Below the pieces are notes generated by a model. That model saw only the letters and a list, made by a program, of their open reading frames with translations, was not told the origin of the DNA and made no database searches. This document shows, piece after piece, positions 1,947 through 57,690 of a stretch of DNA of 64,000 nt (its first letter is position 1; each line of letters starts with the position of its first letter). The translations under genes and the position numbers were made by a program. This stretch comes from Candidatus Omnitrophota bacterium. Its GTDB lineage: Bacteria > Omnitrophota > Gorgyraeia > Duberdicusellales > 4484-171. Location: assembly GCA_016935525.1 (NCBI GenBank), contig JAFGQU010000016.1, forward strand, positions 32,342 through 96,341. The letters are read 5' to 3'.

Positions 1947-1986
1947 AAATCCTCTTTTTCTCTGTATCCCAACGCGTTAGGTGAAC

Positions 1987-12665: not shown

Positions 12666-12857
12666 ATGAAAAGAAAGAGTGAAAGAGATTTAATGGATGT
12701 TGATGAATTAGCCGAGTATCTGGGGTTGCGCAAGCAGACTATCTATAATTGGCTCCATAAACGTAAGATTTCCGGGATAAAGATCGGGAAAGTCTGGCGT
12801 TTTGAGCGGGATGAGATACAGAACTGGCTCCGGGAACATCGGGTTAAAAAGATATGA
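12666..12857 (+). CDS. Excisionase/MerR-family helix-turn-helix DNA-binding protein
   Basis: 63 aa; LMDVDELAEYLGLRKQTIYNWLHKRKISGIKIGKVWRFERDEI is a typical HTH_17 / excisionase-family signature; its stop overlaps the pilM ATG (ATATGA). Confidence 0.6.
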   Translation: MKRKSERDLMDVDELAEYLGLRKQTIYNWLHKRKISGIKIGKVWRFERDEIQNWLREHRVKKI

Positions 12858-14323: not shown

Positions 14324-14832
14324 TGCAACAGCAGATATTACAATTTATCAATGATTATAAAAAAATAGTGGCTGCCGGTTTGATCCTGGTCGTATGTCTG
14401 TTCAGTATCTACCACAATAAGGTCCGTTACCAGGAAAAAGTCAAGGCTTTAGAACGGACAGTCAAAGAGTGGAATGAGAAGATGGCTCTCGGTAAAGATC
14501 TGACCAAGAGAGAACAGACCTACGAAAAGATCAATGAATATTTATTGCGTGACTTTTTCCAGTTAAAACAGATCATCGATGCCGCTGCCCGTAAAGAGAA
14601 CATCGTTTTTAATTCGCTCCGTCAATCATTAAAGGGAGAACAGGAATTGTTTCGTGAAATAAATGTCGAGGTCACCTTATTGGCTTCTTATGATCAGTTG
14701 GTAGACTTTCTCGCGGATCTGGAGAAAAATCCGGCGGTAAGCATGGAACAGTTAAATATAAATTTTAAAAATGACCCGAATGCTCTGGAAATTCAATTGA
14801 ATATAGTAGGGTTGATGAGGAAGACTCAATGA
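14323..14832 (+). CDS. PilO-like pilus assembly protein
   Basis: 169 aa; N-terminal TM; coiled coil; position after pilM/N. Confidence 0.45.
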   Translation: MQQQILQFINDYKKIVAAGLILVVCLFSIYHNKVRYQEKVKALERTVKEWNEKMALGKDLTKREQTYEKINEYLLRDFFQLKQIIDAAARKENIVFNSLRQSLKGEQELFREINVEVTLLASYDQLVDFLADLEKNPAVSMEQLNINFKNDPNALEIQLNIVGLMRKTQ

Positions 14833-15326
14833 GGTTATTCGCATGTATAGTGGCCGTGGTTATTATAGGTAACGGAGTGTCGTTTTTAGCTCAGGCTCAA
14901 CCGGCTCCGGTCAATATTTTTGAACCAAGAATACCGCAAACCAGGAAAACAAAATCAGCGACCACCAGCGAAACGGAGAGTCCTTCAAGGTCTTCGGGTA
15001 CGGTTTCTCAGTCTATGGGCTCCTCCCGCAGTACCAAACGGTTTTCTTCGGAGATAGAAAATGTCCCGGTTGCTCCGGAAAAGATCTCTTTGAATGTCGA
15101 AGGGGTGATCTGGGGTACGATCGTACCGAAGGCGATCATTGACGGCGACATCTACAGCGAAGGAGACCGGGTAATAATCGACGCGGGCAAAAAAGAAGCC
15201 CCGATTTCGGACGCGGTCATCCGCAAGATCGATAAATTAGGGGTGCATGTCGAATATGCCGGGAGGATGTATACTGTGGACGTTGTCGATAAGCCGAGTA
15301 GTAAGAAAAAAAATAAGAAAAAGTAA
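14829..15326 (+). CDS. PilP-like pilus assembly lipoprotein/periplasmic protein
   Basis: 165 aa; signal/TM; Ser/Thr/Pro-rich linker; C-terminal beta-rich domain; immediately upstream of the secretin. Confidence 0.4.
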   Translation: MRLFACIVAVVIIGNGVSFLAQAQPAPVNIFEPRIPQTRKTKSATTSETESPSRSSGTVSQSMGSSRSTKRFSSEIENVPVAPEKISLNVEGVIWGTIVPKAIIDGDIYSEGDRVIIDAGKKEAPISDAVIRKIDKLGVHVEYAGRMYTVDVVDKPSSKKKNKKK

Positions 15327-15422
15327 TCTCGTTCAGCCGGATACATTCATTGATAAATATCTGTCTTAGCTCATTTGTGTTATAAAATGATAGCGAATAA
15401 GATAAAAGAAGGAGGATAATCC

Positions 15423-16898
15423 ATGAGAAAATTACTTATAATTATACTGTTTCTTTTCTGTATTCCTCTCCTTGTCTATCCCGACATAGATATCGATAAT
15501 ATCTATGGCGATCATCTGATCACCCGCGCGAAGAAAAAAGTCTCGATGAACCTGGAGAACGTCGATCTGGTAGATCTGTTGAAAATATTATCGCAACAGA
15601 CCGGGCTTAACTTTATTTCTACCGAAGCGGTGCAATCGCGCAGTATCACGCTTTATATCGAAAACGCCCCGCTTAAAGAGGCGATGGATATCATTTTCAA
15701 GGCAAACCATCTGTCTTACGATTACTACCCGGAGGCGAATATGTTTATCGTCAAAGAAATGGGGCAGCCGGGATTAGAATTAAAGACGAAAGTATATAAG
15801 TTGAAATATACCCGGGTCCAGAGGACGCGTATACAAAGAGAAATAGAAGAAGTGATCTCTACCGACAGCGACGAACTTGAAGATGAAGAGGGGATTGTCG
15901 CCGCGATCGAGCGGGTATTGACTGTGAACGGTAAAGTCATTTCCGAACCGCTTTCCAATTCGATCGTAGTCGTCGATGTGCCTACTCAATTTCCGGTGAT
16001 CGATGATGTGATCGCTTATTTAGACGTACCTCAGCCGAAAGTGCTGATCGAAGTAGAAATGGTCGATGTGTCCAAGCAACTTATGGATAAAATGGGATTC
16101 CAATGGGGGTCCGGACAACAGCCCGGATTTACGGCAACGGTAACCGGAGGGGCTTATGATAATCCCTGGCCGTTCCCTAACAGGCTGCTGAACAGTATTG
16201 CCTGGTCGTCGACTCCCGAGCGTACGTTAACGTTAGGAACGCTTGACCTGACCAAGTTTCAGGCAGTTATGGAATTTGTCAAATCCGATACCGACAGCAA
16301 GATGCTTGCCCGTCCTAAAATACTTTCGCTCAATAACGAGACGTCCGAGGTAAATCTTACTACCGATGAAGCGATCGGGCTTATCACCACAGTTTCCGAT
16401 AGCGGGACTATTACTCAGGAGATCGAACGTACCGAAACCGGTACTAAATTACGGGTTACTCCTCAGATCAACCTGCGTACCCGGGAGGTCACTCTGGTAT
16501 TAGAGGTGTTTACCAAGACCGCCGAAGCCAGCGGTTTTGTGTTGACCGGGACTGCCGCGGGAACCGTCATGAACCCTACGCAACGGGGAACAAAATCGGT
16601 ATTACGCTTGAACGATAATCAGACCCTGCTTATCGGAGGGCTGATCCGGGAAGATAAAGAAAATACCCGGGTAAAAGTGCCTTTCCTGGGAAAGATCCCG
16701 TTTCTTGGCGGAGCGTTCCGTCATAAAAGTAAGACCGATGACTCACGGGAACTGTTGATTTTCCTGACCCCGCGTATTATCGACGATGATATCTATTACA
16801 GCGAAGCTCCTCAGTCGATACCCCGAGAACAGAGTGAACAGGGGATGAAACGAGATTTGATTCATACGACATTAGATAGATATTCGCCACGAAGATAA
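15423..16898 (+). CDS. pilQ: Type IV pilus / T2SS secretin (PilQ/GspD family)
   Basis: Signal peptide; the C-terminal secretin motif GGLIREDKENTRVKVPFLGKIPFLGGAFR ... ELLIFLTPRII is diagnostic. Confidence 0.8.
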   Translation: MRKLLIIILFLFCIPLLVYPDIDIDNIYGDHLITRAKKKVSMNLENVDLVDLLKILSQQTGLNFISTEAVQSRSITLYIENAPLKEAMDIIFKANHLSYDYYPEANMFIVKEMGQPGLELKTKVYKLKYTRVQRTRIQREIEEVISTDSDELEDEEGIVAAIERVLTVNGKVISEPLSNSIVVVDVPTQFPVIDDVIAYLDVPQPKVLIEVEMVDVSKQLMDKMGFQWGSGQQPGFTATVTGGAYDNPWPFPNRLLNSIAWSSTPERTLTLGTLDLTKFQAVMEFVKSDTDSKMLARPKILSLNNETSEVNLTTDEAIGLITTVSDSGTITQEIERTETGTKLRVTPQINLRTREVTLVLEVFTKTAEASGFVLTGTAAGTVMNPTQRGTKSVLRLNDNQTLLIGGLIREDKENTRVKVPFLGKIPFLGGAFRHKSKTDDSRELLIFLTPRIIDDDIYYSEAPQSIPREQSEQGMKRDLIHTTLDRYSPRR

Positions 16899-16908
16899 TT
16901 AGTAAACG

Positions 16909-18612
16909 ATGCCAAAACACAAACGTTTGGGAGAAATTCTTGTGGCTGAAGGGATGGTTACATCTGAACAGCTGCAGGAAGCTGTTGCTTTTCAGAAAGA
17001 AGACGGAGGAAGATTGGGTGATGTCCTCGTCAAGCTGGGGTATGTCACCGAAGAGCAGATCCTTATTGCCTTAAGTAAACAGCTGGCTATTCCCTACGTG
17101 ACGCTTACTTCCGGAAAATTAAAGCCGGATACCGACCAGAATCTGGAAGAGATCATCCCTTACGAGTTCGCGGTACGTAACCTTATCCTCCCGCTTTCCC
17201 GCAGTTATAATTCGCTTACCGCGGCTATTTTCGACCCGTTAGACCTGATCCTTATCGATAATGTCCGCAAGATGACCAATAGCGAGATCAATCCGGTATT
17301 GGCGACCAAGACCGATATCCTCAAAGCGATCGAAGATTTCTACGGCCGGGAGAAGATCTTTAAAGAAGCTATCCAGGCCGCCTACGGAGACGGGATCGAG
17401 GAAATCAAAGATATCTCTTCGGAAACGGAACTCAGTTTAGATAAACTTATCGCTAAAGCGGAAGAGGCACCGGTGATCAAACTGGTCGACCTTATGGTCC
17501 GCCAGGCGATCGAAGAAGGCGCGTCCGATATTCATATCGAACCGCAGCGGGATAAATTGCGTCTGAGGTACCGTATTGACGGGATCTTGTATGAGATCTC
17601 TCCTCCGACTAAAGCGTTGCACCTGCCTATTGTCTCGCGTATTAAGATCCTTGCCCGGATGGATATCGCCGAAAAGCGGCTTCCTCAGGACGGGAGTTTT
17701 ATGGTGAAGATCCATGAACGGCTGATCGATCTGCGGGTCTCCAGTGTCCCGACTATTTACGGCGAAAAGGTCGTTATGCGTATTTTGGATAAATCACGGG
17801 TCCCGTTAGATCTTTCCAAGATCGGGTTTCTCGGCCAGGAGTTAGGGATGATCAAAAAAGGTATTAATTATTCTTATGGATTAGTATTTTTAACCGGGCC
17901 GACCGGCTCAGGTAAATCGACTACATTGTATGCCGGGTTGAACGAGCTGAACGGGGCCGGTAAGAATATTACTACGATCGAGGATCCGGTTGAATACCGG
18001 TTAGACGGGGTGAACCAGGTCCAGGTGAAACCGGAGATCGGGCTTACGTTTGCCAACGTCCTGCGTAGTTTCCTGCGGCAGGATCCGGATATCATCCTGG
18101 TCGGAGAGGTCCGTGATCTTGAGACCGCGGAGATCTGTATCCGGTCGGCATTGACCGGCCATCTGGTTTTATCGACACTGCATACCAATGACGCGGTCGG
18201 GGCGGTAATGCGCCTGGTCGATATGGGGATTCCCAATTATCTGGTGGCCTCTTCCCTACGGCTGGTAGTAGCTCAACGGTTAGTAAGAAAGTTATGTCCG
18301 GCGTGTAAAGAGCCTTACGAAATAAAAAAAGGAGATATCCCGGCCGGCCTTAATCTCACTGCTTCGGTGATCCATAAGCCGAAAGGGTGTGAGGCGTGCC
18401 GGTATATCGGTTTTAAAGGCCGGACATTGATCACCGAGGTCATTCATGTCGATGAAGAGCTGAGAGAAGCGATCCAGCGTAAGATGAGCCCCTCGGAGAT
18501 CATGCAGATCGCGAAGAAGAAAGGGACTTTAAGCCTGCTTGAGAGCGGGATCAAGAGAGTTGAGGAAGGCACTACATCGTTAGAAGAGATATTGTCAGTT
18601 GTCGCCTATTAA
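16909..18612 (+). CDS. pilB: Type IV pilus assembly ATPase PilB / GspE family
   Basis: N-terminal T2SSE_N domain; Walker A LTGPTGSGKSTTLYA; Asp/His boxes; C-terminal CxxC ... CxxC zinc motif. Confidence 0.9.
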   Translation: MPKHKRLGEILVAEGMVTSEQLQEAVAFQKEDGGRLGDVLVKLGYVTEEQILIALSKQLAIPYVTLTSGKLKPDTDQNLEEIIPYEFAVRNLILPLSRSYNSLTAAIFDPLDLILIDNVRKMTNSEINPVLATKTDILKAIEDFYGREKIFKEAIQAAYGDGIEEIKDISSETELSLDKLIAKAEEAPVIKLVDLMVRQAIEEGASDIHIEPQRDKLRLRYRIDGILYEISPPTKALHLPIVSRIKILARMDIAEKRLPQDGSFMVKIHERLIDLRVSSVPTIYGEKVVMRILDKSRVPLDLSKIGFLGQELGMIKKGINYSYGLVFLTGPTGSGKSTTLYAGLNELNGAGKNITTIEDPVEYRLDGVNQVQVKPEIGLTFANVLRSFLRQDPDIILVGEVRDLETAEICIRSALTGHLVLSTLHTNDAVGAVMRLVDMGIPNYLVASSLRLVVAQRLVRKLCPACKEPYEIKKGDIPAGLNLTASVIHKPKGCEACRYIGFKGRTLITEVIHVDEELREAIQRKMSPSEIMQIAKKKGTLSLLESGIKRVEEGTTSLEEILSVVAY

Positions 18613-18639
18613 AGTGTAGGATAAAGAGAGGAATACATC

Positions 18640-19872
18640 ATGCCGTTATTTTATTATATCGCCAAAGGTAAAGACGGAAAGACCGTGAAAAACGTCGAGG
18701 ACGCCTCGTCGCGTGATGAGATCGTCAGTAAATTGAAAGGTAACGGGATGTTTATTATCTCTATCCGGGAAGCCGAACAGAAAGAGCGCGGAGGAGGCCG
18801 GCTTAAGATCGGCCGCGGGAAAAGAAAACATTCCGGTATCAACACGCTCGATGTCGCTTTTTTTGCGAGAAACCTGGCGACGACGTTATCGGCGGGAGTG
18901 CCGTTGTTGCGGAGTCTTGAGATCATGGCCGCGCAGACCGAGAGTAAAGACCTTTCGAAGATCTTAAGTGAAATAGTCTTAGGAATCAAAAAAGGCCTGT
19001 CGTTGAGCGAGTCGATCGCTCAATATCCCGCGATATTTTCTCCCCTATGGCGGGGGATCATCGAAGTAGGGGAGACTTCCGGTAATCTGCCGTTTGTACT
19101 CGATAAATTATCCGATTATCTGGAATTACGGGTCGAATTCGAACGTAAGATGAAAAGCGCGATGATCTATCCGATCATCCTGATGTGTGTCGCGTTCGGA
19201 GCGGTCCTTTTATTTTTTAAAGTCATCTTGCCTAAATTTACCACCCTGTTCGATCAGTTTAATATCGCCCTTCCGTTACCGACGCAAATACTGTTTAACC
19301 TGAGTAAATTCGTCGATGCCTATTTCTTTGTCCTTTTGTTTACGATGCTCATCCTCGGCGGGGTCGGATGGTACGCGCTTAAAAAACCGGCTACCAAAAA
19401 ATATCTCGACCGTCTGGTATTGACTCTTCCTTTGATCCGGGACGGAGCTTTATATAGTTATCTTGAACGGTTCTCATCGACCATGTACATCCTTCTTGAG
19501 AGCGGCGTTCCGATAGTCTATACCCTGGAAGTAGTATCGAAAAGTATAGGTAACAGCCTTATCGAGCATGAGATGCTTCAGATAAAAGAAAATGTCCGCC
19601 GGGGCAAAAGCCTTTCTTCGGAGCTGGAAAAACTTGATTTATTCCCGCCGCTGGTGACCGAGGTGGCTCATATCGGGGAGGAAGCCGGTAATCTGCCGGA
19701 GATGTTCAAAAAGATATCGACGCATTATCAGAAACAATTAACGACCATTATCGAACGGTTAGTCGCCGCGTTTGAACCGTTGATGATCGTGATGATGGGG
19801 ATCGTGATCGGGTCTATCGTTATTTCGCTCTTTTTACCCATGTTTAAGATCGCGACATTGGGTGGTGCTTGA
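18640..19872 (+). CDS. pilC: Type IV pilus inner-membrane platform protein PilC / GspF
   Basis: 410 aa with two GspF repeats; typical TM pattern. Confidence 0.9.
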   Translation: MPLFYYIAKGKDGKTVKNVEDASSRDEIVSKLKGNGMFIISIREAEQKERGGGRLKIGRGKRKHSGINTLDVAFFARNLATTLSAGVPLLRSLEIMAAQTESKDLSKILSEIVLGIKKGLSLSESIAQYPAIFSPLWRGIIEVGETSGNLPFVLDKLSDYLELRVEFERKMKSAMIYPIILMCVAFGAVLLFFKVILPKFTTLFDQFNIALPLPTQILFNLSKFVDAYFFVLLFTMLILGGVGWYALKKPATKKYLDRLVLTLPLIRDGALYSYLERFSSTMYILLESGVPIVYTLEVVSKSIGNSLIEHEMLQIKENVRRGKSLSSELEKLDLFPPLVTEVAHIGEEAGNLPEMFKKISTHYQKQLTTIIERLVAAFEPLMIVMMGIVIGSIVISLFLPMFKIATLGGA

Positions 19873-20060
19873 TAGAGAGAGGAGAATCTATAGGAAGTGT
19901 ATATATATCAATCGAGGAGGTGATGACTGTATTTGACGAACTGAAAATAATATGGTATAAATTATTGTTAGGGAGAAAAAGGATACGGTAAAACCAACAT
20001 AAACATAAAAACAGGTAAAAACAGGTAAGTATAAGTAACAATACAAGAAGGAGGTTTGCG

Positions 20061-20477
20061 ATGAGAAAAGGGTTTACGCTTATAGAATTATTGATCGTAG
20101 TTATCGTTATTGCTATCTTAGCCACGTTTGCTATCCCCCAATATATGAAAGCGGTAGAACGGGCAAAAGTATCGAAAGGCGCGCATCATATAGGACTTAT
20201 TGCTCAGGCAATGAAGATGTATCGTGCCGATACGGATGAATATCCCGATGCCAGTACCGGAGATTTCGGCGATACGTTCGTAGATTACGTTGAACTGAAT
20301 GAAATCGATAATGATAGTGATTGGGATTATACGGTGACCGGAGATGCTAACGGAGAGACCTTTACTATCACCGCAGATAGAACGGCCGGCCCTTATGCCG
20401 GACAGGTTCTTGAAATAAATGAGATGGGTGAATGGGACAATTCCGATCACCTTTTGTTCCGTATCCCCGGTGAATAA
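20061..20477 (+). CDS. Type IV pilin / pseudopilin (GspG-like), class III signal
   Basis: MRKG|FTLIELLIVVIVIAILATFAIPQY prepilin cleavage/methylation motif with Glu+5; SD aaggagg. Confidence 0.8.
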   Translation: MRKGFTLIELLIVVIVIAILATFAIPQYMKAVERAKVSKGAHHIGLIAQAMKMYRADTDEYPDASTGDFGDTFVDYVELNEIDNDSDWDYTVTGDANGETFTITADRTAGPYAGQVLEINEMGEWDNSDHLLFRIPGE

Positions 20478-20511
20478 TCGCCCGGATATTCAGAGAGAAC
20501 GGTACGTAGTT

Positions 20512-20907
20512 ATGTTACAGAAAATGACATATTCCAAGTGCGCTTTTACGTTGATCGAGCTTTTAATCGTGGTAAGTATCATCGCTCTGTTAGCTACGTT
20601 TGCCATGCCGGCATACCGCAGGGCCCAGGAACGGGCCCATGATAATGAAGCGACAGCGATGTTGAAGCTTATCCAACATTCCGAAAAGGTATATCATATG
20701 GAACGTCCTAATGAATACGCCGCCTGCGGCAATACGAGTGCCTGTAACGTCGCGTTGAATTTAAACCTTTCTGCGGCCTACTGGGCGTATAGCGTAAGCG
20801 CGGACGCAAGCGGTTTTTGTGCCGAGGCTACGCATTCGACCGGCGGCAACCCGCGGACCTGGTATATCAACGAAACCGACGAAGAGCCTAACGATAGCGG
20901 TTGTTAA
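20512..20907 (+). CDS. Type IV pilin-like protein with atypical leader (Ala at -1)
   Basis: MLQKMTYSKCA|FTLIELLIVVSIIALLATFAMPAY; start moved to the ATG at 20512; C-terminal Cys pair. Confidence 0.65.
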   Translation: MLQKMTYSKCAFTLIELLIVVSIIALLATFAMPAYRRAQERAHDNEATAMLKLIQHSEKVYHMERPNEYAACGNTSACNVALNLNLSAAYWAYSVSADASGFCAEATHSTGGNPRTWYINETDEEPNDSGC

Positions 20908-22671: not shown

Positions 22672-24177
22672 ATGCTCACGAAATCAGAGAATAACCTTTC
22701 TTTCGTTACATCCCTTTTACTGCTTGCTTCAACTATCGCGTATTATATTTTTATCCAGTTTGTCTCGCCGGTCCTTTATGGGGTCGACGGGTATTATCAT
22801 ATTGCCGTGGCCCGGTGTATTAAAGATTTCGGGCTGAAATACGGTTTCCCCTGGGCTCAGTTTTCTACTTTTACGAACGCGTTTTCCGATAAAGAACTGC
22901 TGTTCCATCTGCTGAGTGTCCCTTTCCTTTATGTGACCGATAATATAATCCTGGCCGCAAAATTTTCCGTTGTTTTTTATAACCTCCTGTTTTTCTCGGT
23001 GTTCATATTCATTTTGAGAAAATATGTGCCGTACTTTTTAATCGGCGTGTCCCTTTTATTCCTTGTCGCGTCCGGTTACTTCTCAGTCCGGTTTACCTGT
23101 CTGCGGCCGGAGATCCTCGCGATCATCCTTACTGTGTTAGGCGTATATTTTCTTATCAAGAAAAACCGCTGGGGAGTTTTTATCATTGGTGTGGTCTATT
23201 CGTTATCGCATATCTCGTTTTTCACCCTGTTCATCTTTGCCGTCTGCTGTGAAACTGTCCGGTACATAATGAAAAAAGAGGTGTGTGTACCGAATCTGTA
23301 TATGTCGTTTCTCGGTATCCTGTCCGGTAGCCTTATCCATCCTCATAATCCTTATAATTGGGTAAGTTTCCATCTTAACGCTATTCTGGTCCCTTTTTAT
23401 TCGATGAGGGAGGTAGCTCTTGACCTGGGGCCGGAACTGCTCTCTACCGATAGCAAGAAGATCTTTATAGAAAATATATCCTTATTCCTTTGCGGGAGCG
23501 GGATCATCGGGTTTGTTTTGATGCGTACTACAAAATTGAGTGTGGATACGGCCGTGTGGTGGGCGTGTTTCATGTTCTATTTTTTCTTAGGGTTCATCGG
23601 TTCGCGTTATTGGTACCCGGCAACCGCGCTTTTTATCGTTTTTGCCGCGTCTTTTGTGTATGACTGGACCGCCGGGAGAAATATCCGGGACATAACGGTT
23701 GCATTGCGGCCGGTTGTGTTGGCAGTAATGATCTTTTTAGGGCTCCATGCTTCCTACACCATAACCAAAATGGCAGAACATATCACCTTCTATACGTTCC
23801 GTAACGACCAATATGAAGAGGCCGCGTCATGGATGAAAAAAAATCTTCCCGCTCAACAGACCGTATACCACGCGAATTGGAGCGTTTCCCCTTATTTCAT
23901 CGCATTAAACCCAAAAGATAACTATCTCGTAGTGCTGGATCCGATCTATATGTTCTATCCTTATCCGGAAAAATATATGGTTTATAAGGAATTGTTCCAT
24001 GGAAAAGCGAAAGATCCTTACCGGGCCATAAAAGATAATTTCGGAGTGACCTACGGGTGTGTAGATAAAAACACGCGTTTGTACCGGCAGATAAAAGGGG
24101 ATAAAGATCATTTCCTTATGCTTCATGAAAATATTCGGGTTGCGGTATTCCGATTATTAGATAATAAAGAGCAATAA
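22672..24177 (+). CDS. Polytopic membrane protein, GT-C-like glycosyltransferase (ArnT/PMT-like) candidate
   Basis: 501 aa; ~10 TM helices in the N-terminal two-thirds plus a soluble C-terminal domain; the first periplasmic loop YGVDGYYH is reminiscent of GT-C acidic loop motifs; weak assignment. Confidence 0.35.
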   Translation: MLTKSENNLSFVTSLLLLASTIAYYIFIQFVSPVLYGVDGYYHIAVARCIKDFGLKYGFPWAQFSTFTNAFSDKELLFHLLSVPFLYVTDNIILAAKFSVVFYNLLFFSVFIFILRKYVPYFLIGVSLLFLVASGYFSVRFTCLRPEILAIILTVLGVYFLIKKNRWGVFIIGVVYSLSHISFFTLFIFAVCCETVRYIMKKEVCVPNLYMSFLGILSGSLIHPHNPYNWVSFHLNAILVPFYSMREVALDLGPELLSTDSKKIFIENISLFLCGSGIIGFVLMRTTKLSVDTAVWWACFMFYFFLGFIGSRYWYPATALFIVFAASFVYDWTAGRNIRDITVALRPVVLAVMIFLGLHASYTITKMAEHITFYTFRNDQYEEAASWMKKNLPAQQTVYHANWSVSPYFIALNPKDNYLVVLDPIYMFYPYPEKYMVYKELFHGKAKDPYRAIKDNFGVTYGCVDKNTRLYRQIKGDKDHFLMLHENIRVAVFRLLDNKEQ

Positions 24178-24188
24178 GGTGGATACGT

Positions 24189-25691
24189 ATGGGGTTTGAA
24201 TTAAGACGTACGCGGATGGTTTTGTGGGTATCGATGATCGGGTTGGTACTGGGAGGTATTTTTTGCCTGCCCGGGTATACTCAATTAGTGAAACCTCATG
24301 AATTTGCCGGCACGTTTTATCCTCAAAATAAAAACGATCTCACCCGGTATATTCAGTCGGTGCTCACCGAAGCGGCGGATGTCGCGTCAAAGGTGCCCGA
24401 GCATATTTTCGGGATCATCGTCCCGCATGCCGGTTACGTGTATTCCGCTCCCGTAGCGGCGGTCTCTTATAACGCGATCAAAGGTATGGATATTGATACG
24501 GTGATCCTTCTGGGCGCGTCTCACCGGTACCCTTACCGCGGTATTGCCGTCTGGCCGCAAGGCCGGTTCACGACGCCATTAGGATCTCTAGATGTTGACG
24601 AGAAGGTTGCCGAAGAATTTATGGAATTGAAATTCGTAGAGCCTCAGACCCGTTATTTCTATGATGAACATAGCCTGGAAGTACAACTTCCTTTTTTACA
24701 GACGATATTGCCGGGAGCAAAAATCGTCCCGCTTTTGTTCGGCGAGGTCACTTATGACCAGTTAGAGATGTGTGCCCGTACGCTCGCTGAGGTAGCTCGT
24801 ACCAAAAAAATACTGGTCGTGGTTTCTACCGACCTGTCGCATTACCATGAGTATAAAGAGGCCTGCAGTATCGACGCGCGGACGGTGGATTATGTTTCGC
24901 ATCAGGATTTTTTCAATCTCTGGACGAGCGTGCAGTTGGGAGAACAACGGGCTTGCGGGATAAAACCTCTCATCGCTTTTTTGATGTATACCGACCGTAT
25001 CGGGGGTGAGGTGAACATATTGAAATACGCGAATTCGGGGGATACTGCCGGTGATAAAACTAAAGTCGTAGGGTATATGAGTGCTGTTGCTTTTAAAGAA
25101 GAGAATGCCAATAAAAAGGAGACATTGATGGACCATCCCACATTGACCGATTCCGATAAAAAAGTATTATTACATATTGCCCGGTTGACTCTGGAGAATT
25201 ATCTGCGTGATCAACCGGTCCCGGAATTTGAACAAGGTTCGCCGATATTGTATGAAAAACGAGGCGCGTTCGTGACGTTGAAAGAACACGGCCAGTTACG
25301 CGGCTGTATCGGCCGGATAGTCGCCGATACGCCTCTTTATAAGGTGATCTCCGATTTTGCGATAAATGCCGCGGTCCATGACATGCGGTTTAAACCGGTC
25401 GAATATAAAGAGTTAAAGGATATCGAAATAGAGATATCGGTGTTGACTCCGTTTGAACGGGTCCAGTCGCTCGATGAGATCGAAGTCGGTACTCACGGGT
25501 TGATGATCCAGAAAGGGCCTTATTCCGGCTTGCTTCTTCCCCAGGTGCCTCTTGAATATCATTGGGACCGGGATACCTTTTTGGAACATCTCTGTTATAA
25601 GGCGGGGCTCCCTTCAGGTGCCTATAAAGATAAAGACGCGGTGATCTATAGATTTTCCGCTTCGGTCTTTTCCGAAAAAGAATTCAAGTAA
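24189..25691 (+). CDS. AmmeMemoRadiSam system protein B (MEMO1-like) fused to protein A (AMMECR1 domain), with N-terminal signal/TM segment
   Basis: N-half GTFYPQ ... IVPHAGYVYS ... LGASH (Memo family); C-half GAFVTLKEHGQLRGCIGRIV (AMMECR1 GCIG motif). Confidence 0.75.
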   Translation: MGFELRRTRMVLWVSMIGLVLGGIFCLPGYTQLVKPHEFAGTFYPQNKNDLTRYIQSVLTEAADVASKVPEHIFGIIVPHAGYVYSAPVAAVSYNAIKGMDIDTVILLGASHRYPYRGIAVWPQGRFTTPLGSLDVDEKVAEEFMELKFVEPQTRYFYDEHSLEVQLPFLQTILPGAKIVPLLFGEVTYDQLEMCARTLAEVARTKKILVVVSTDLSHYHEYKEACSIDARTVDYVSHQDFFNLWTSVQLGEQRACGIKPLIAFLMYTDRIGGEVNILKYANSGDTAGDKTKVVGYMSAVAFKEENANKKETLMDHPTLTDSDKKVLLHIARLTLENYLRDQPVPEFEQGSPILYEKRGAFVTLKEHGQLRGCIGRIVADTPLYKVISDFAINAAVHDMRFKPVEYKELKDIEIEISVLTPFERVQSLDEIEVGTHGLMIQKGPYSGLLLPQVPLEYHWDRDTFLEHLCYKAGLPSGAYKDKDAVIYRFSASVFSEKEFK

Positions 25692-28786: not shown

Positions 28787-29338
28787 ATGAATATAGTGTT
28801 TCTTGACCGTGACGGTGTGATCAATAAATTTCCCGGGAAAGGCCAATATGTGACCTCTCCAGGCGGATTTTCGTTTTTACCCGGCAGTATCGAAGCGATA
28901 AAAAAACTGAACGATAACGATTTTAAGGTGTATGTCGTTTCTAATCAGGCCGGAGTAGCCAAAGGATTGTATTCGCAAAAAGATCTTGATGCGATCGACC
29001 GTAAAATGACCGAAGGCCTGAAGAAGAAAAAAGCTCATGTTGACGGGATCTATTATTGTACCCATTCATCGGATGAGAAATGTTCCTGCCGTAAGCCCGC
29101 AACCGGGCTTCTCCAAAAAGCTATGGAAGGATATAAAGGGAACTCAGGTTGCGTTTTCTTTATCGGCGATTCGATGGTAGATATCGAAACGGCAAAAAAC
29201 CAGAATATCAATTCGATACTGGTGCTTTCCGGAAGAGTAAAATTGAGCGAACAGGATACCTGGCGGATGAGGCCCGATTACGTATTTGATAACCTGCTGC
29301 TCGCGGCGTATTATCTCTGTAATCATTATGGAAAATAA
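28787..29338 (+). CDS. gmhB: D-glycero-D-manno-heptose 1,7-bisphosphate phosphatase (HAD family)
   Basis: FLDRDGVIN HAD motif I; CxC ... C zinc site CTHSSDEKCSCRKP typical of GmhB. Confidence 0.7.
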   Translation: MNIVFLDRDGVINKFPGKGQYVTSPGGFSFLPGSIEAIKKLNDNDFKVYVVSNQAGVAKGLYSQKDLDAIDRKMTEGLKKKKAHVDGIYYCTHSSDEKCSCRKPATGLLQKAMEGYKGNSGCVFFIGDSMVDIETAKNQNINSILVLSGRVKLSEQDTWRMRPDYVFDNLLLAAYYLCNHYGK

Positions 29339-30398
29339 GATCCTTATCGTGCATGCCAGTTGCGGCCGGGGACATGAACATGCCGCAAAAGCTCTGGCTG
29401 AAGAATTCGGGTGTGATTGTCATGATATCCTGGATTTCGCGCCCGGTATATTTAAAATGGTATATTGCCGGGGGTACCGGTTCCTGGTCAAACATTGCCA
29501 TTGGGTATGGATACTTATATTTGAAATAAGCAAATGCGATCTTCTTAACCGGGTTACCCATTTTTTCAATACACTTATTTTTCGTAAATTCCTCGCCTAT
29601 GTGCGCCGGGAGAAGCCGGCGATCGTGATTTCGACCCATTTTTTCAGTTCTTCGCTTATTTCGGATATAAAAGATGAGATTGCCTGTAAGAATGTGGTGT
29701 TGGTCACCGATCTCGGAGTCCATCCGGTCTGGGTCAATAGGAACGTAGACCAGTATTATGTGGGGCTTGAGTGCACCGCAGAGGATCTCCTCGCCCAGGG
29801 TATCCCTCCGGAGAAGATCAAAGTGACCGGATTGCCGTTACGCGAAGGTTTTTACGCCGAGAGTGTCGAAAAAGACATCTATGAGATATTGGATCTCACT
29901 CGCGATAAACCGTGCATACTTTTTTTAGCGACTGATTTAAGAAGAATGACGTATTTGCCGGGAGTTTTAAAAAAACTTGATCCGGATTTCCATCTGGTAG
30001 TGAGTTACGGCGGTAATCTTAAATTAAAAGAAAGACTTGAGCAGTTGAACCTTGCCAATCTGAAATTATTTTCTTTTTCCGACTGTATCTGGGTATTGAT
30101 GCGCGGAGCCGAGATGATCGTGACTAAACCCGGAGGGCTTACCGTTTTTGAATCTTTTCAGTTGCGTAAACCGCTTGTATTCACTCATTTTATCTGGGGA
30201 CAGGAGAGAAGTAATATGGATGTCGCTTGTGCCCGGGGTGTAGGGTTTTATGCGCGATGCGCGCATGAGCTCATTGAGAAAGTGTATTTTGTCCATAATA
30301 ACCTTACCGCCATCACTCAGAAGATGTTCCCGGTGAGCAATGCCCGCAGCCTTATAAGAGAATATACGGATCAGTTATTCTCCTCGACCACTATTTGA
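29328..30398 (+). CDS. GT28-family glycosyltransferase, MGDG-synthase/UgtP-like
   Basis: MENKILIVHASCGRGHEHAAKALAEE N-terminal MGDG_synth motif; C-terminal GT-B domain; start moved to the ATG at 29328. Confidence 0.55.
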   Translation: MENKILIVHASCGRGHEHAAKALAEEFGCDCHDILDFAPGIFKMVYCRGYRFLVKHCHWVWILIFEISKCDLLNRVTHFFNTLIFRKFLAYVRREKPAIVISTHFFSSSLISDIKDEIACKNVVLVTDLGVHPVWVNRNVDQYYVGLECTAEDLLAQGIPPEKIKVTGLPLREGFYAESVEKDIYEILDLTRDKPCILFLATDLRRMTYLPGVLKKLDPDFHLVVSYGGNLKLKERLEQLNLANLKLFSFSDCIWVLMRGAEMIVTKPGGLTVFESFQLRKPLVFTHFIWGQERSNMDVACARGVGFYARCAHELIEKVYFVHNNLTAITQKMFPVSNARSLIREYTDQLFSSTTI

Positions 30399-30515
30399 GA
30401 GAGCTCTGAAAAAGTCTAAAAACCTGTGGAATTTCCTGATTACAGTGGCCGAAAAGACGAAAGTTTTTAATCTCCGGAATCATCCTTTAATCACTGTAAT
30501 CAGACGCTGGAAAAG

Positions 30516-32354
30516 ATGAAATATTCTGTCGCCCGTGTCGTGTTTAATCTTGGGGTGGATAAAGCGTTCGATTATCGTATCGGCTCCGGCCAGCATATCT
30601 TACCCGGTATGCGCGTATGGGTAGAGCTGAACGGCCGCGGGCGTATGGGAGTCGTGACTAAACTTCTCGGCCGTACTCAGCGCCGGGGGTTAAACCCGGT
30701 CCTGGAAATATTGGATGCCGCCCCTACCCTTTCTGAAGCTCAACTTGATTTTGCCTGCTATCTCACTCGTTATTATCCTTATCCTCTGGGAGAATTCTTA
30801 TTTATGATGATCCCGCGTAAATTAAAAGTCAGGAAAACCCGGTTTGAACCGCAAGAGACAATGATACACGCTTGTGTTCCGCGAAAAGGAGAAAACCGTT
30901 CACGGGTCACCTATATCCAGGCCGGTTTGTTAAAAGAGCGTATTGAAGCTTACCGCCGGTATATCCGGGAAGCTCTGAAAGAAGGGTCGGTGATCCTCAC
31001 GGTGCCGTTGGTGGCGACTCTTAAATATCTGCGCAAAGAGCTTGCGGGCGAGTTCAAAGATATGGTCGTCCTTTCCAGCTATCAACGCGATAACGAGATG
31101 TATTTTTCCTGGCAACACGCGCATTCTCAAAAAAAACTGATCTTGAGTACCCGGTTGGGACTGTTTCTTTTTCCGGCCGATGTGCGTCTTGTTATTGTGG
31201 AGGATGAAAGTAATAGCCATTACTTTTCTCAGGAGAAACCTTACTATTATTTCATCGATATTGCCCGGTATCTTAAGGAATGCCGGGGTATCGATCTTGT
31301 TGTCGGGTTCGATTATCCTTCATTGGAAACGTATAAATCAATAAAAGAAAAACAGGGCAATCCCGAGATCATCAGGATCCCTTTTGATTTGTGCGCGACG
31401 GAAATCATCTCGACGTTAAGTTTCTTTACTAAAAAGAAAGGGTTCCATTTTAACAATCTGTTTTTAGAATTGGTCCGTAAAAACCTCGATGAGCAGAAAC
31501 GGGTGCTTATCCTTTATAACCGGCGGGGATATGCGACGTTACTCAAATGTTCACAATGCGGCCATGTATACCGTTGTAAACGTTGTGAAAGCGTGCTGAA
31601 ATTTTCGGCCGCGGCCGACGAACAGAAAGGGGTCTGCCCGTTTTGTCATTACCAGGAAGATATCCCGAAAGTGTGTCCTCAATGTAATTCCGGATATATC
31701 CGGACCCTAGGGCTGGGAATAGAACGGTTGGAATCACATCTTAAAAAAGCTTTCCCGCAGCATAAGGTCGGTCTGGTTTCGCCGTCGGTTCCCCGGGATG
31801 CCGAAATCCTGGTAAGTACGTATGGGGTGCTCGACGGGCCCTATTTAGAGGCCAATAGGCCGGACGCGGTGTTTGTCTTGGACAGTGACCATTCTCTTGT
31901 CCGGATCGATTTCGAAGCGACCTTGCAGTTATATATCTATTTGCGCCGGTTGGCTGCGTATACGCGCACGCGGGTGTATATCTTTACGCTCAATAGAGAT
32001 CATTATGTGTGGGAAACATTATCGGATGAGTCCGATGTCTTTTACCTGGCCGAAAGCCGTCTGCGCAACCAGGCTCATTTACCGCCTTATTGTCATTTTG
32101 CCAAGATCTCGTTACGGGGCCGGGATGAGAAGAGGCTTTTCATCGGTGCCAATACAGTATACAATAAACTACATGACAACCCTCAATTAGAAGTGTACGG
32201 CCCGATTACGGATGTGCCGTTTAAACTGAGGGGTTATTTTTATTATTCGGTTATTGTAAAATCCAAACAGAAGGCCCCTTTATATCAGGCGGTCGAGGAG
32301 ATCACGAAACATTCACGAAGTAAAGCAACAAGGATAGCAGTCCAATTACGATGA
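30516..32354 (+). CDS. priA: Primosomal protein N' (PriA) homologue with degenerate ATPase motifs
   Basis: The N-terminal 3'-DNA-binding domain and the helicase-core segments (VIVEDESNSHYF, LILSTRLGLF) align with PriA; Cys-rich zinc-binding insert CSQCGHVYRCKRC ... CPFC ... CPQC present; the Walker A GxGKT is absent. Confidence 0.65.
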   Translation: MKYSVARVVFNLGVDKAFDYRIGSGQHILPGMRVWVELNGRGRMGVVTKLLGRTQRRGLNPVLEILDAAPTLSEAQLDFACYLTRYYPYPLGEFLFMMIPRKLKVRKTRFEPQETMIHACVPRKGENRSRVTYIQAGLLKERIEAYRRYIREALKEGSVILTVPLVATLKYLRKELAGEFKDMVVLSSYQRDNEMYFSWQHAHSQKKLILSTRLGLFLFPADVRLVIVEDESNSHYFSQEKPYYYFIDIARYLKECRGIDLVVGFDYPSLETYKSIKEKQGNPEIIRIPFDLCATEIISTLSFFTKKKGFHFNNLFLELVRKNLDEQKRVLILYNRRGYATLLKCSQCGHVYRCKRCESVLKFSAAADEQKGVCPFCHYQEDIPKVCPQCNSGYIRTLGLGIERLESHLKKAFPQHKVGLVSPSVPRDAEILVSTYGVLDGPYLEANRPDAVFVLDSDHSLVRIDFEATLQLYIYLRRLAAYTRTRVYIFTLNRDHYVWETLSDESDVFYLAESRLRNQAHLPPYCHFAKISLRGRDEKRLFIGANTVYNKLHDNPQLEVYGPITDVPFKLRGYFYYSVIVKSKQKAPLYQAVEEITKHSRSKATRIAVQLR

Positions 32355-33280
32355 GATTCGTTTACTTTGGTACTTCACAATTTGCTGCCGATTTTCTGAA
32401 ATTGCTTTGCGATAAAAACATTATACCGGAATTAGTAGTCAGCACTCCCGATGTCCACTCGGGAAGAGGGCTGAAACTGCAGAGTTCTCCGGTAAAATCG
32501 TGTGCCGCCGAAAAAGAGATACCCTGTATTACCCCTCAAGACCTGTCGGATCCCCGCTGTACCAAGAAGATACAGGATCTAGGAGCCGACCTCTTTGTCG
32601 TGGTCAGTTACGGCAAGCTTATTCCGCACAAGATGCTGTCTTCGGCGGGCAAATTCCCGTTAGGCGTTCATCCTTCTCTGCTTCCCCGCCTACGGGGCGC
32701 GGCTCCTATCCAGTGGTCGTTGATCAACGGCGAAGCAGTGACCGGAGTGACGGTCTTTGTGATCGACGAAAAAATAGACTCAGGCCCTATTTTAGTGCAG
32801 GAAAAACTGGTTATTCATAAAGACGACGACTATTTTTCTTTATGCCGGCGGCTCGTCGCTTTAGGCGTAGAATGTATCGTAGGGGCATTGCGACTGCTTT
32901 CTTCAGAGAAATATGAGCTTATCGAACAGGATAAAGCTCAGAGTACCTATTCCCGTAAATTGAAGAAATCCGACGGTAAGATCAATTGGCGAAAACGCGC
33001 GAAAGATATTGTCAATCTTATCCGCGGCACAAAAGAATGGCCCGGCGCGTATACGTTTCATAAAGGTAAACCGATCAAGATCATTCAGGCTGTAGAGGCT
33101 CAAAGCTGCGAATGCCCGCCGTCACCGGGTATCATCACGGTGAAAGAGGGGATGCTGTATGTACGGGCCGGCGATATCGCGGTCGCGGTCCTTAGGCTTA
33201 AACCGGCCGGGAAAAAAGAGATGCCGGCGGAAAGTTTTCTTAACGGATATAGAGTCAAAACGGGAGACCGTTTTGAATAA
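32351..33280 (+). CDS. fmt: Methionyl-tRNA formyltransferase
   Basis: Formyl_trans_N plus C-terminal domain; HPSLLPRLRGAAPIQWSLING motif. Confidence 0.85.
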   Translation: MRFVYFGTSQFAADFLKLLCDKNIIPELVVSTPDVHSGRGLKLQSSPVKSCAAEKEIPCITPQDLSDPRCTKKIQDLGADLFVVVSYGKLIPHKMLSSAGKFPLGVHPSLLPRLRGAAPIQWSLINGEAVTGVTVFVIDEKIDSGPILVQEKLVIHKDDDYFSLCRRLVALGVECIVGALRLLSSEKYELIEQDKAQSTYSRKLKKSDGKINWRKRAKDIVNLIRGTKEWPGAYTFHKGKPIKIIQAVEAQSCECPPSPGIITVKEGMLYVRAGDIAVAVLRLKPAGKKEMPAESFLNGYRVKTGDRFE

Positions 33281-56928: not shown

Positions 56929-57690
56929 ATGGGACGCCGCCGCGGCCGGCCCAGGTCATTTAAACGTCGGATACCGAAAATCCCTTTTCCGGTTGTGGTG
57001 GCCCTTTTGATCCTTATCTTTACGGCCGTTGCCGCCAGTTACGCCCTCAAAAGGATTACTCCGCTTACCTTTTTCAGAGTGAAGACCGTTCGTATCGACG
57101 GGAACGAGGATGGGCGACAGATCAAAACAATCGTAAGCGACTATGCGTTGGGTAAATCGTTACTGTCCCTTGATCTGAAAAGTATCCGCACTACCGTCAT
57201 GCAACGTTATCCGGATCTTGAGGAACTTACTTTTCTTAAAGAATTTCCCGATACGGTTGATGTCAATGTCTTGCGCAGTAAAGCTTTCTTACAGATAAAA
57301 AGCGACCGTTATTATATTTTAAACGAAGCGTTGAAGATCATCGAGGAAGAACGGGGCCCGCGATCGGGACTGGTGACTGTGGAAGTAGACGGGTTTACCC
57401 AGGATATCGCTGCCGGAGCCTATATTGATGACGAACGGGTAAGGCAGGCCGCTCGTCTGTTAGAAGTGCTGTTACGTTCCGACTTATTTTCGCCTACCAC
57501 CATTCTTGCTCATCGTTTGGATAATCTGTCGTTTTTTACTCACGGTACAAAAGTGATATTAGGAGAGCAGGATTTCGAAAAAAAGCTTAAGATATTAGAA
57601 GCATTAATGCGTGAGAATTACGATAACGATTTTTCTACATTACGTTACATCGATCTGCGTTACAGTAAAGTATATATTGGGAAACGATGA
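56929..57690 (+). CDS. ftsQ: Cell division protein FtsQ/DivIB (TM plus POTRA)
   Basis: Arg-rich N-terminus followed by a TM (VVVALLILIFTAVAASYAL) and a POTRA-like region; canonical position after ddl. Confidence 0.65.
   Translation: MGRRRGRPRSFKRRIPKIPFPVVVALLILIFTAVAASYALKRITPLTFFRVKTVRIDGNEDGRQIKTIVSDYALGKSLLSLDLKSIRTTVMQRYPDLEELTFLKEFPDTVDVNVLRSKAFLQIKSDRYYILNEALKIIEEERGPRSGLVTVEVDGFTQDIAAGAYIDDERVRQAARLLEVLLRSDLFSPTTILAHRLDNLSFFTHGTKVILGEQDFEKKLKILEALMRENYDNDFSTLRYIDLRYSKVYIGKR

What the first reader, a model, noticed from the sequence alone, without database searches (positions are those of the whole stretch)
30516..32354. PriA homologue lacking the Walker A P-loop and with a degenerate DExH box; likely an ATPase-dead primosomal protein
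The N-terminal 3'-end-binding domain, helicase-core beta-strand segments and the Cys-rich zinc-binding insert all align with PriA. Where PriA has AGVTGSGKTEVY the sequence reads AGLLKERIEAY, with no GxGK[ST] anywhere in the protein. The DEEH box reads EDES (VIVEDESNSHYF). PriA is often assumed to be a universally active helicase, although helicase-inactive PriA proteins have been described. This copy would retain fork recognition but not ATP-driven unwinding.
Basis: partly seen in the sequence, partly recalled or inferred. Interest (0 to 1): 0.6.

Follow-up and report, generated by a model that had tools for sequence, protein, structure and literature searches.

The report
Motor-dead PriA of Omnitrophota bacteria
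This gene is the replication-restart protein PriA of an uncultured Omnitrophota bacterium that keeps its DNA-fork-recognition parts but has lost every ATP-motor motif, a state shared by a large part of that phylum and previously described only in Deinococcus-Thermus.

Summary
ORF 30516-32354 (+, 612 aa) is a PriA homologue. It has the 3'-end-binding domain, a two-lobe SF2 fold, an 8-Cys zinc region and the PriA C-terminal domain.

The motor is gone:
- No GxGK[ST] in any frame, and DEEH reads EDES.
- Motifs Ia, III (SAT to DYP), V (GTQMxxKG) and VI (GRAGR) are also lost.
- There is no winged-helix domain.
- The Walker A lysine position is an Arg (R142), the same change as in E. coli priA300 and in Deinococcus-Thermus PriA.

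It is not an artefact:
- 54 GTDB species-representative genomes, almost all Candidatus Omnitrophota, carry the same form in the same gene order (gmhB-MGDG synthase-priA-fmt).
- At least 127 protein clusters at 50% identity carry it too.
- dN/dS is 0.08-0.18, including in both dead lobes.

Other Omnitrophota have a fully canonical PriA that also lacks the winged helix, at the same locus. The dead form is therefore the positional orthologue and decayed in place, independently of Deinococcus-Thermus.

Most likely it is an ATP-independent fork-recognition scaffold for reloading DnaB. Not tested: biochemistry, and a second priA elsewhere in the genome. I found no paper describing this.

The parts
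30516..32354 (+). priA pseudohelicase CDS (612 aa plus stop)
   Evidence: ORF. PriA_3primeBD and PriA_C Pfam hits. PDB PriA E=2.5e-38. AF2 model pLDDT 83.4 with best Foldseek match PriA 8fak_H, TMq 0.77.
30516..30830 (+). 3'-end-binding domain (aa 1-105), with the F18-D19-Y20 pocket at nt 30567-30575
   Evidence: PF17764 residues 7-100. In 127 pseudo-PriA representatives F18 is kept in 125, D19 in 112 and Y20 in 127.
30831..30902 (+). Short linker (aa 106-129) where gamma-proteobacterial PriA has the roughly 90-aa winged-helix domain
   Evidence: Gap against winged-helix-containing PriAs in alignment A1. pLDDT is below 50 for residues 114-127.
30921..30953 (+). Remnant of motif I (Walker A): AGLLKERIEAY, with R142 on the catalytic lysine column
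   Evidence: R is invariant in the window's clade and occurs in 73 of 127 of the wider set.
31002..31028 (+). Remnant of motif Ia: VPLVATLKY in place of VPEISLTPQ
   Evidence: Motif table.
31191..31259 (+). Remnant of motif II (EDES for DEEH) followed by the aromatic-rich loop YFSQEKPYYYFID
   Evidence: E231, Y236, P242 and Y244 are conserved in at least 85% of 127 pseudo forms. In E. coli this loop wedges into the fork junction (PMC10175261, PMC5175346).
31302..31328 (+). Remnant of motif III: VGFDYPSLE in place of LGSATPSLE
31548..31685 (+). Cysteine-rich region: C345, C348, C354, C357, C374, C377, C387, C390 (two predicted Zn sites)
   Evidence: Invariant in A1 and A2. Kept in 126-127 of 127 in the wider family.
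31809..31856 (+). Remnant of motif V: LVSTYGVLDGPYLEAN in place of LVGTQMLAKGHHFP
31938..31970 (+). Remnant of motif VI: YLRRLAAYTRT in place of QVAGRAGRG
   Evidence: No GRxGR anywhere in the protein.
32076..32351 (+). PriA C-terminal domain (aa 521-612)
   Evidence: PF18074 residues 524-607. R517, P523 and P524 are conserved.
32351..33280 (+). fmt (methionyl-tRNA formyltransferase), overlapping the priA stop by 4 nt (ATGA). It is the syntenic anchor showing positional orthology.
   Evidence: Pfam Formyl_trans_N and Formyl_trans_C. fmt lies directly downstream of priA wherever downstream DNA was available: 52 of the 54 related loci (the other two contigs end at priA), and also in the canonical Omnitrophota loci.
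28787..30398 (+). gmhB-like HAD phosphatase and MGDG-synthase-like glycosyltransferase, the conserved upstream neighbours
   Evidence: Pfam. The same pair lies upstream of the pseudo-PriA, of the second-tier pseudo-PriA and of the canonical PriA of Omnitrophota.

Best explanation
This is the single, positionally orthologous priA of an Omnitrophota bacterium, and it has evolved into a pseudohelicase.

The SF2 two-lobe core is kept as a fold, but every element that binds or hydrolyses NTP or couples hydrolysis to DNA is gone: motifs I, Ia, III, V and VI, and the His of DEEH. There is no winged-helix domain.

What purifying selection still holds is the fork-reading and partner-docking hardware: the 3'-OH pocket of the 3'BD, the aromatic loop that sits at the fork junction, the two-zinc cysteine-rich region, and the C-terminal domain.

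Inferred mechanism: the protein binds abandoned forks and D-loops through the nascent leading-strand 3' end and the junction. It holds lagging-strand ssDNA between the CRR, lobe 2 and the CTD. It then acts as an ATP-independent platform that brings in the replicative helicase DnaB, directly or through a DciA-type loader or SSB. This is what E. coli PriA K230R does in vivo and what Deinococcus radiodurans PriA does in vitro. Any unwinding of a duplex lagging arm would have to come from another helicase, or is not needed.

Shown: motif loss, domain retention, lineage-wide conservation, purifying selection, and shared locus with canonical priA.
Inferred: absence of ATPase activity, fork binding, DnaB recruitment.
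For: Motif loss:
- No Walker A in any frame.
- No DEAD or Helicase_C Pfam hit, although the 3'BD and CTD hit.
- Below every NCBIfam PriA cutoff; TIGR00595 scores 187 against a cutoff of 230.
- The motif table shows I, Ia, III, V and VI lost in the window and in 54 of 54 related genomes.

Fold:
- AF2 model pLDDT 83.4, pTM 0.78.
- Best PDB matches are PriA structures: 8fak_H TMq 0.77, and the E. coli winged-helix-deletion PriA 6dcr TMq 0.70.

The gene is real and constrained:
- 55 GTDB species-representative loci, almost all Candidatus Omnitrophota.
- About 135 of the top 150 hits in a search of 1.84 billion cluster representatives are motor-less; 127 of these are full-length.
- All the relatives that carry a source name are Omnitrophota.
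- dN/dS is 0.08-0.18 overall and 0.05-0.21 in each dead lobe.
- The conserved set is FDY, W199, Y236/P242/Y244, the 8 Cys, G399/G401, D458, D465, R517 and P523-P524.

Orthology:
- Window and relatives: gmhB-MGDG-priA*-fmt.
- Second-tier pseudo form: gmhB-MGDG-priA*-fmt-GalT-GalT-GAPDH.
- Canonical Omnitrophota PriA: gmhB-MGDG-UDG-priA-def-fmt-...-GalT-GalT-GAPDH.
- The window protein's best canonical matches are these Omnitrophota-type PriAs, at 204-213 bits.
- NJ bootstrap for all Omnitrophota-type PriAs against other phyla is 183/200.
- Forms with some motifs left exist: P0242, P0246, P0247.

No second PriA-like gene in the 64-kb window or in 805 kb of related loci.

Precedent:
- K230R abolishes PriA ATPase, yet priA300 cells are near wild type and the protein still supports restart in vitro (PMC5778457).
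- D. radiodurans PriA has K to R, no ATPase or helicase activity, and binds forks and DnaB (PMC4504706).
Against: - No biochemical data exist for any member. 'ATPase-dead' rests on motif absence.
- The rest of this genome could not be searched, nor could the three complete related chromosomes (CP070807, CP070684, CP070797). A second intact priA elsewhere is therefore not excluded.
- All relatives come from metagenome-assembled genomes.
- The NJ trees are crude. Monophyly of the degenerate forms has weak support (56% for fully degenerate forms, 30% when intermediates are included), so the number of loss events is unresolved.
- Partners (DnaB, DciA, SSB) were not examined.
- Three acidic residues of motif II (E/D-E/D-E) remain conserved. 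That could reflect a residual metal or ligand site rather than a purely structural role.
Confidence: 0.7

Rival explanations
1. The genome also carries an intact priA elsewhere. This copy would then be a specialised, motor-less paralogue, for example a regulator or competitor at forks, and not the cell's only PriA.
For: Canonical PriAs do exist in Candidatus Omnitrophota.
Against: - The dead form sits in the same locus as canonical priA in other Omnitrophota. It is therefore the positional orthologue, not an added copy.
- No second PriA-like gene was found in the window or in 805 kb around 54 relatives.
- Forms with partly decayed motifs suggest in-place decay.
Confidence: 0.1
2. The protein has a new function. 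It would be a PriA-derived zinc-binding, structure-specific DNA-binding protein whose role is no longer replisome reloading, for example protecting or marking branched DNA.
For: - It is only 25-27% identical to the closest canonical PriAs.
- New clade-specific conserved motifs have appeared, such as EEENSPYYFQ, DYPSL and LDxDxxLSRxDFEAT.
- The neighbouring UDG and def genes have been lost from the locus.
Against: The conserved residues are largely those shared with canonical PriA: the 3' pocket, the aromatic-loop tyrosines, the CRR and the CTD. The operon link with fmt is kept. No alternative PriA was seen that could supply the restart function.
Confidence: 0.15
3. The protein is still an NTPase and uses a non-canonical nucleotide site.
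For: The acidic triad at motif II and an Arg or Lys at the Walker A lysine column are kept in most members. A second weak nucleotide site has been proposed for E. coli PriA (PMC5778457).
Against: There are no P-loop glycines and no Ser/Thr. Motifs III, V and VI, including the arginine finger, are all absent. In E. coli, K to R alone kills the ATPase (PMC5778457).
Confidence: 0.03
4. The gene is a decaying pseudogene, or an assembly or sequencing artefact.
For: PGAP labels several close relatives 'hypothetical protein'.
Against: - The ORF is an intact 612 aa with the same N- and C-termini as its homologues.
- The same architecture occurs in 54 species representatives.
- dN/dS is 0.08-0.18.
- No alternative-frame motifs exist.
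- The AF2 fold is confident.
Confidence: 0.02

Closest known systems
Deinococcus radiodurans / Deinococcus-Thermus PriA pseudohelicase (Lopper et al. 2015, PMC4504706)
   Same: Both are natural PriAs with degenerate motifs I and II. Both have Arg in place of the Walker A lysine. Both are conserved across a lineage. The Deinococcus protein lacks ATPase and helicase activity yet binds ssDNA, forks and DnaB.
   Different: - The lineage is different: this form nests with canonical Omnitrophota PriAs, so it arose independently.
- The decay goes further: Ia, III, V and VI are also gone, and roughly 15 residues are deleted between motifs IV and V.
- There is no winged-helix domain.
- No biochemistry exists.
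- I could not obtain a Deinococcus sequence for direct alignment. This comparison rests on the paper's description.
E. coli PriA K230R/K230A (priA300) engineered ATPase-dead variants
   Same: The Walker A lysine is replaced (by R in priA300). The variants still assemble the primosome and support PriA-PriB restart in vivo and in vitro (PMC5778457, PMC10175261). This is the functional model for a scaffold-only PriA.
   Different: The engineered variants carry a single substitution in an otherwise intact motor. They depend on PriB and DnaT, which are restricted to some Proteobacteria. In E. coli the helicase-dependent PriA-PriC route is lost, and Rep is thought to compensate.
E. coli PriA winged-helix deletion protein (PDB 6dcr)
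   Same: The domain layout matches: 3'BD, helicase lobes, CRR and CTD, with no winged helix. It is the second-best structural match (TMq 0.70).
   Different: It is a laboratory construct with an active ATPase core. In Omnitrophota the absence of the winged helix is natural and is also seen in the phylum's canonical PriAs.
Canonical PriA of other Candidatus Omnitrophota (e.g. P0369 in GCA_028715645.1, and P0211)
   Same: Same locus (gmhB-MGDG-...-priA-...-fmt). Same architecture without a winged helix. It is the closest canonical sequence relative.
   Different: It is 660-680 aa long. It has intact GxGKT/ASGKT, DEEH, SAT, GTQM..KG and GRAGR, and it hits Pfam DEAD and Helicase_C. UDG lies upstream and def downstream; both are absent from the window's locus.

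Membership tests
PriA (primosomal protein N', TIGR00595 / PRK05580) | N-terminal 3'-end-binding domain (PF17764) with the F-D-Y pocket | tested here: met
   PF17764 E=9.5e-19, residues 7-100. F18-D19-Y20 are present and conserved.
PriA (primosomal protein N', TIGR00595 / PRK05580) | SF2 helicase core with motifs I, Ia, II, III, V and VI (Pfam DEAD / Helicase_C) | tested here: not met
   No DEAD or Helicase_C hit. No GxGK[ST], SAT or GRxGR. See the motif table. Only the two-lobe fold is retained, and that is in a predicted model.
PriA (primosomal protein N', TIGR00595 / PRK05580) | Cysteine-rich region with eight Zn-ligand cysteines inserted in lobe 2 | tested here: met
   C345, C348, C354, C357, C374, C377, C387 and C390 are invariant.
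PriA (primosomal protein N', TIGR00595 / PRK05580) | PriA C-terminal domain (PF18074) | tested here: met
   PF18074 E=2.5e-11, residues 524-607.
PriA (primosomal protein N', TIGR00595 / PRK05580) | Score above the curated equivalog cutoff | tested here: not met
   TIGR00595 scores 187.3 against a cutoff of 230.35. All PRK05580 and PRK14873 models are far below cutoff. Several close relatives are named 'hypothetical protein'.
PriA (primosomal protein N', TIGR00595 / PRK05580) | Orthology by genomic position with canonical priA (priA-(def)-fmt) | tested here: met
PriA (primosomal protein N', TIGR00595 / PRK05580) | DNA-dependent ATPase and 3'-5' helicase activity | not testable with these tools
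   Needs purified protein. The sequence predicts absence.
PriA pseudohelicase (Deinococcus-Thermus type, PMC4504706) | Walker A lysine replaced by arginine, with motifs I and II degenerate | tested here: met
   R142 aligns with the GKT lysine. EDES replaces DEEH.
PriA pseudohelicase (Deinococcus-Thermus type, PMC4504706) | Common descent with the Deinococcus-Thermus PriA lineage | tested here: not met
   It groups with Omnitrophota canonical PriAs (NJ bootstrap 183/200) and shares their locus. No Deinococcus sequence was available for a direct test.
PriA pseudohelicase (Deinococcus-Thermus type, PMC4504706) | No ATPase or helicase activity, but binding to ssDNA, forks and DnaB | not testable with these tools
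   Biochemical assays are required.

The most novel reading that the evidence does not exclude
A large part of the phylum Omnitrophota runs replication restart with a PriA that has no motor at all and no back-up copy. This would be an independent and more extreme repeat of the Deinococcus-Thermus case.

If so, PriA's ancestral, indispensable job is structure-specific fork recognition and helicase recruitment. The helicase activity would be an accessory that can be discarded over long evolutionary time.

The graded series inside one phylum runs from canonical forms, through forms that keep some motifs, to fully dead forms. It would allow the order of motif loss to be reconstructed, along with what compensates for it: for example loss of recG, or gain of another fork helicase, given that helicase-dead priA alleles suppress recG defects in E. 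coli.
Probability: 0.55. Interest if true: 0.65.

Novelty: new variant of a known kind. Interest (0 to 1): 0.55.

Why it matters
[quoted passage not shown] This locus adds a second, independent lineage that is much more diverse: at least 127 protein clusters at 50% identity and 54 GTDB species representatives.

In this lineage the whole motor has eroded, while the fork-reading parts stay under purifying selection. That supports the view that PriA is at heart a fork-recognition and loader scaffold.

Canonical, part-decayed and dead orthologues sit at one locus within one phylum. That gives a natural series for asking which residues matter for ATP-independent restart, and which other genes change when the motor is lost.

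There is also an annotation gap. The protein falls below every NCBIfam PriA cutoff and is labelled 'hypothetical protein' in several genomes, so surveys based on those models would score these Omnitrophota as lacking PriA.

Tried and rejected
- **Frameshift or hidden P-loop.** Regex searches of all six frames found none, and the tblastn segments share one frame. Rejected.
- **Second priA nearby.** tblastn with three canonical PriAs against the window, and with Omnitrophota canonical PriAs against 805 kb of related loci, found none.
- **Whole-genome test for a second priA.** Not possible.
- **Literature.** No paper in the library holds both PriA and Omnitrophota/Omnitrophica. Four papers mention 'pseudohelicase' together with PriA; the only one about a PriA pseudohelicase is the Deinococcus study, and two of the others merely cite it.
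- **Names for part-decayed and closest canonical forms.** Cluster look-ups gave no source names for P0242, P0246, P0247, P0211 or P0019. Their assignment to Omnitrophota rests on synteny and named relatives only.
- **Former nucleotide pocket.** I wanted to see whether R142 contacts the E229-D230-E231 triad, but model coordinates are not exposed. This remains a hypothesis.
- **Single versus multiple loss events.** NJ bootstrap is inconclusive: 56% for fully degenerate forms, 30% when intermediates are included.
- **Direct alignment with Deinococcus or Thermus PriA.** No sequence was obtainable with the available collections.
Full report
**1. Observation**

The ORF at 30516..32354 (+) encodes 612 aa. 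Its stop overlaps the ATG of the next gene, fmt, in the sequence ATGA. AGLLKERIEAY is residues 136-146, and VIVEDESNSHYF is residues 226-237.

No GxGK[ST], [GA]xxxxGK[ST] or bare GK[ST] occurs in the protein. None occurs in any of the six frames of the gene plus 300 nt of flank on each side. There is also no SAT and no GRxGR.

Pfam finds PriA_3primeBD (residues 7-100, E=9.5e-19) and PriA_C (524-607, E=2.5e-11). It finds no DEAD or Helicase_C domain. NCBIfam PriA models all hit but fall below their cutoffs; TIGR00595 scores 187 bits against a cutoff of 230. The best solved relatives are Klebsiella and E. coli PriA (E about 1e-38).

That alignment places R142 on the Walker A lysine (K230 in E. 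coli). It places E229-D230-E231-S232 on D-E-E-H.

**2. The loss is much wider than reported**

I aligned the protein with canonical PriAs and built a motif table. They show:
- motif Ia: VPEISLTPQ has become VPLVATLKY;
- motif III: GSATPSLE has become GFDYPSLE;
- motif V: GTQMLAKGHHFP has become STYGVLDGPYLEAN;
- motif VI: QVAGRAGRG has become RLAAYTRT;
- about 15 residues between motifs IV and V are deleted;
- the winged-helix domain is absent, replaced by a linker of about 25 residues.

The retained features are the 3'BD, motif IV (NRRGYA), all eight cysteines of the zinc-binding region, the GxGxE segment after it, and the C-terminal domain.

An AlphaFold2 model built on 17 relatives is confident (pLDDT 83.4, pTM 0.78). 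Its best PDB matches are PriA structures: fork-bound E. coli PriA 8fak_H (TMq 0.77) and the E. coli winged-helix-deletion construct 6dcr (TMq 0.70). Other SF2 helicases follow far behind. The two RecA-like lobes therefore persist as a fold without their catalytic residues.

**3. It is not an artefact, and it is not unique to this genome**

A protein search found a set of 595-621-aa relatives, 27-43% identical, that carry only the 3'BD and CTD Pfam hits. The named ones are from Candidatus Omnitrophica MAGs.

A scan of GTDB species-representative genomes found 55 loci. Nearly all are labelled Candidatus Omnitrophota, and three lie on complete chromosomes of 1.3-1.8 Mb. All 54 usable genes show the same motif losses.

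A profile search of 1.84 billion cluster representatives showed that about 135 of the best 150 hits are motor-less PriAs of 595-680 aa without a winged helix. Of these, 127 are full-length and were used for the conservation counts. Every one that carries a source name is Omnitrophota.

For eight closely related pairs, dN/dS is 0.08-0.18 overall. It is 0.05-0.21 in each of the two dead lobes. The whole protein, including the former motor, is therefore under purifying selection.

Across the 127 degenerate representatives, the positions conserved in at least 85% include:
- the 3'-OH pocket (F18, D19, Y20) and W199;
- the aromatic-loop residues Y236, P242 and Y244;
- the eight cysteines;
- G399, G401, D458, D465, R517, P523 and P524.

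All of these are shared with canonical PriA. The Walker A lysine column is Arg in 73 of 127 and Lys in 14.

**4. Orthologue or paralogue?**

The gene order around the window gene is rSAM-rlu-gmhB-MGDG synthase-priA*-fmt-acyP-ligA. It is conserved across the 54 loci, often with the same 4-nt priA/fmt overlap.

Canonical PriAs also exist in Omnitrophota. They are 660-680 aa, also lack a winged helix, and have intact motifs I-VI and Pfam DEAD and Helicase_C hits. They sit in the same place: gmhB-MGDG-UDG-priA-def-fmt-...-GalT-GalT-GAPDH.

A more distant dead form, P0148, is found on contigs of more than 1 Mb. Its locus is gmhB-MGDG-priA*-fmt-GalT-GalT-GAPDH. The dead gene is therefore the positional orthologue of canonical priA.

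Further points:
- The window protein's best canonical matches are these Omnitrophota-type PriAs, at 204-213 bits.
- In NJ bootstraps, all Omnitrophota-type PriAs separate from other phyla in 183 of 200 replicates.
- Forms that keep some motifs exist: P0247 has GSGKT but no GRAGR; P0246 has DEEH and GTQM; P0242 has GSGKM and GTQM and has UDG upstream.
- Whether the motor was lost once or several times is unresolved.
- No second PriA-like gene occurs in the 64-kb window or in 805 kb around the relatives.
- Whole genomes could not be searched.

**5. Mechanism (inferred)**

In E. coli, K230R (priA300) abolishes ATPase, helicase and translocase activity. Yet the cells behave nearly like wild type, and the protein supports restart in vitro. 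The helicase is needed only for the PriA-PriC route and a few special cases (PMC5778457).

In the fork-bound cryo-EM structure:
- the 3'BD captures the nascent leading-strand 3' end;
- the aromatic loop of lobe 1 wedges into the junction;
- the CRR, lobe 2 and CTD form a pore around lagging-strand ssDNA;
- the winged helix makes only a poorly ordered contact with parental duplex (PMC10175261).

Exactly those non-catalytic elements are what Omnitrophota conserve. The most likely role is therefore an ATP-independent fork and D-loop recognition platform that recruits DnaB. This is as proposed for D. radiodurans PriA, which binds forks and DnaB but has no ATPase (PMC4504706).

The conserved Arg at the lysine column and the retained acidic triad may pair to stabilise the empty nucleotide cleft. 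I could not test this, because model coordinates are not exposed.

**6. Comparison and novelty**

The known kind is the PriA pseudohelicase of Deinococcus-Thermus. The Omnitrophota form shares the K-to-R change and degenerate motifs I and II. It differs in three ways:
- it arose inside a different phylum, from a canonical ancestor at the same locus;
- it has lost all motor motifs;
- it lacks the winged helix.

No paper in the searchable library links PriA with Omnitrophota, and reviews list Deinococcus as the only exception (PMC5778457). I rate it a new variant of a known kind, of moderate interest.

**7. Context**

The window is ordinary chromosomal DNA with about 46% GC. It carries uvrA, a type IV pilus / T2SS-like cluster, tRNA- and rRNA-modification genes, ligA, xerC/D and a dcw cell-wall cluster. 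Neighbouring proteins are 40-69% identical to Omnitrophota homologues.

Noticed in passing
L056 5589-11479 and L057 5619-11654, compared with window 28787-33280: In Omnitrophota with a canonical PriA, a UDG-family gene sits directly upstream of priA and def (peptide deformylase) sits between priA and fmt. Both are missing from this locus in the window and in the dead-PriA relatives. The motor loss coincides with a local gene-order change.
   Followed up: partly
window 30516-32354; proteins P0002, P0005, P0011, P0013, P0016: Annotation gap. The dead PriA falls below every NCBIfam PriA cutoff (TIGR00595 scores 187 against 230). Close relatives are deposited as 'hypothetical protein'. Surveys based on those models would score these genomes as lacking PriA.
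   Followed up: partly
model m6d7f750f8db6 (window 30516-32351): The AF2 model superposes better on fork-bound E. coli PriA (8fak_H, TMq 0.77, rmsd 6.6) than on apo PriA structures (TMq about 0.70, rmsd about 11). This may mean the CRR is predicted in the pivoted, pore-forming position. It could equally be a modelling accident.
   Followed up: no
L004 (JAIWAR010000002.1): A 70-kb contig labelled 'Methanosarcinales archaeon' carries the full bacterial Omnitrophota synteny (rSAM-rlu-gmhB-MGDG-priA*-fmt-acyP-ligA). It is probably a mis-binned contig. Many other hits are labelled 'uncultured Planctomycetia' (binchicken MAGs) but share the same synteny.
   Followed up: no
window 24189-25691: A single 500-aa ORF fuses a Memo-like domain (38-300) with an AMMECR1 domain (329-494). 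These two are usually separate, neighbouring genes.
   Followed up: no
window 22672-24177, 57687-58832 and 58836-60794: Three sizeable ORFs (501, 381 and 652 aa) have no Pfam hit at E<=1e-5.
   Followed up: no
window 12854-20907: A type IV pilus / type II secretion-like cluster: PilM-like protein, secretin, GspE/PilB ATPase, GspF/PilC, and a prepilin-type N-methylation-motif protein.
   Followed up: no
window 1-2000: The first 2 kb has 36% GC against about 46% for the rest of the window. It holds a 157-aa ORF on the minus strand with no Pfam hit. A NYN-domain ORF follows at 2291-2983 (-).
   Followed up: no
window 29208-30398: The listed TTG start (29286) of the MGDG-synthase-like gene overlaps the end of gmhB by about 50 nt. 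The conserved N-terminus (MENKILIV...) suggests the true start is the internal ATG about 45 nt downstream.
   Followed up: no
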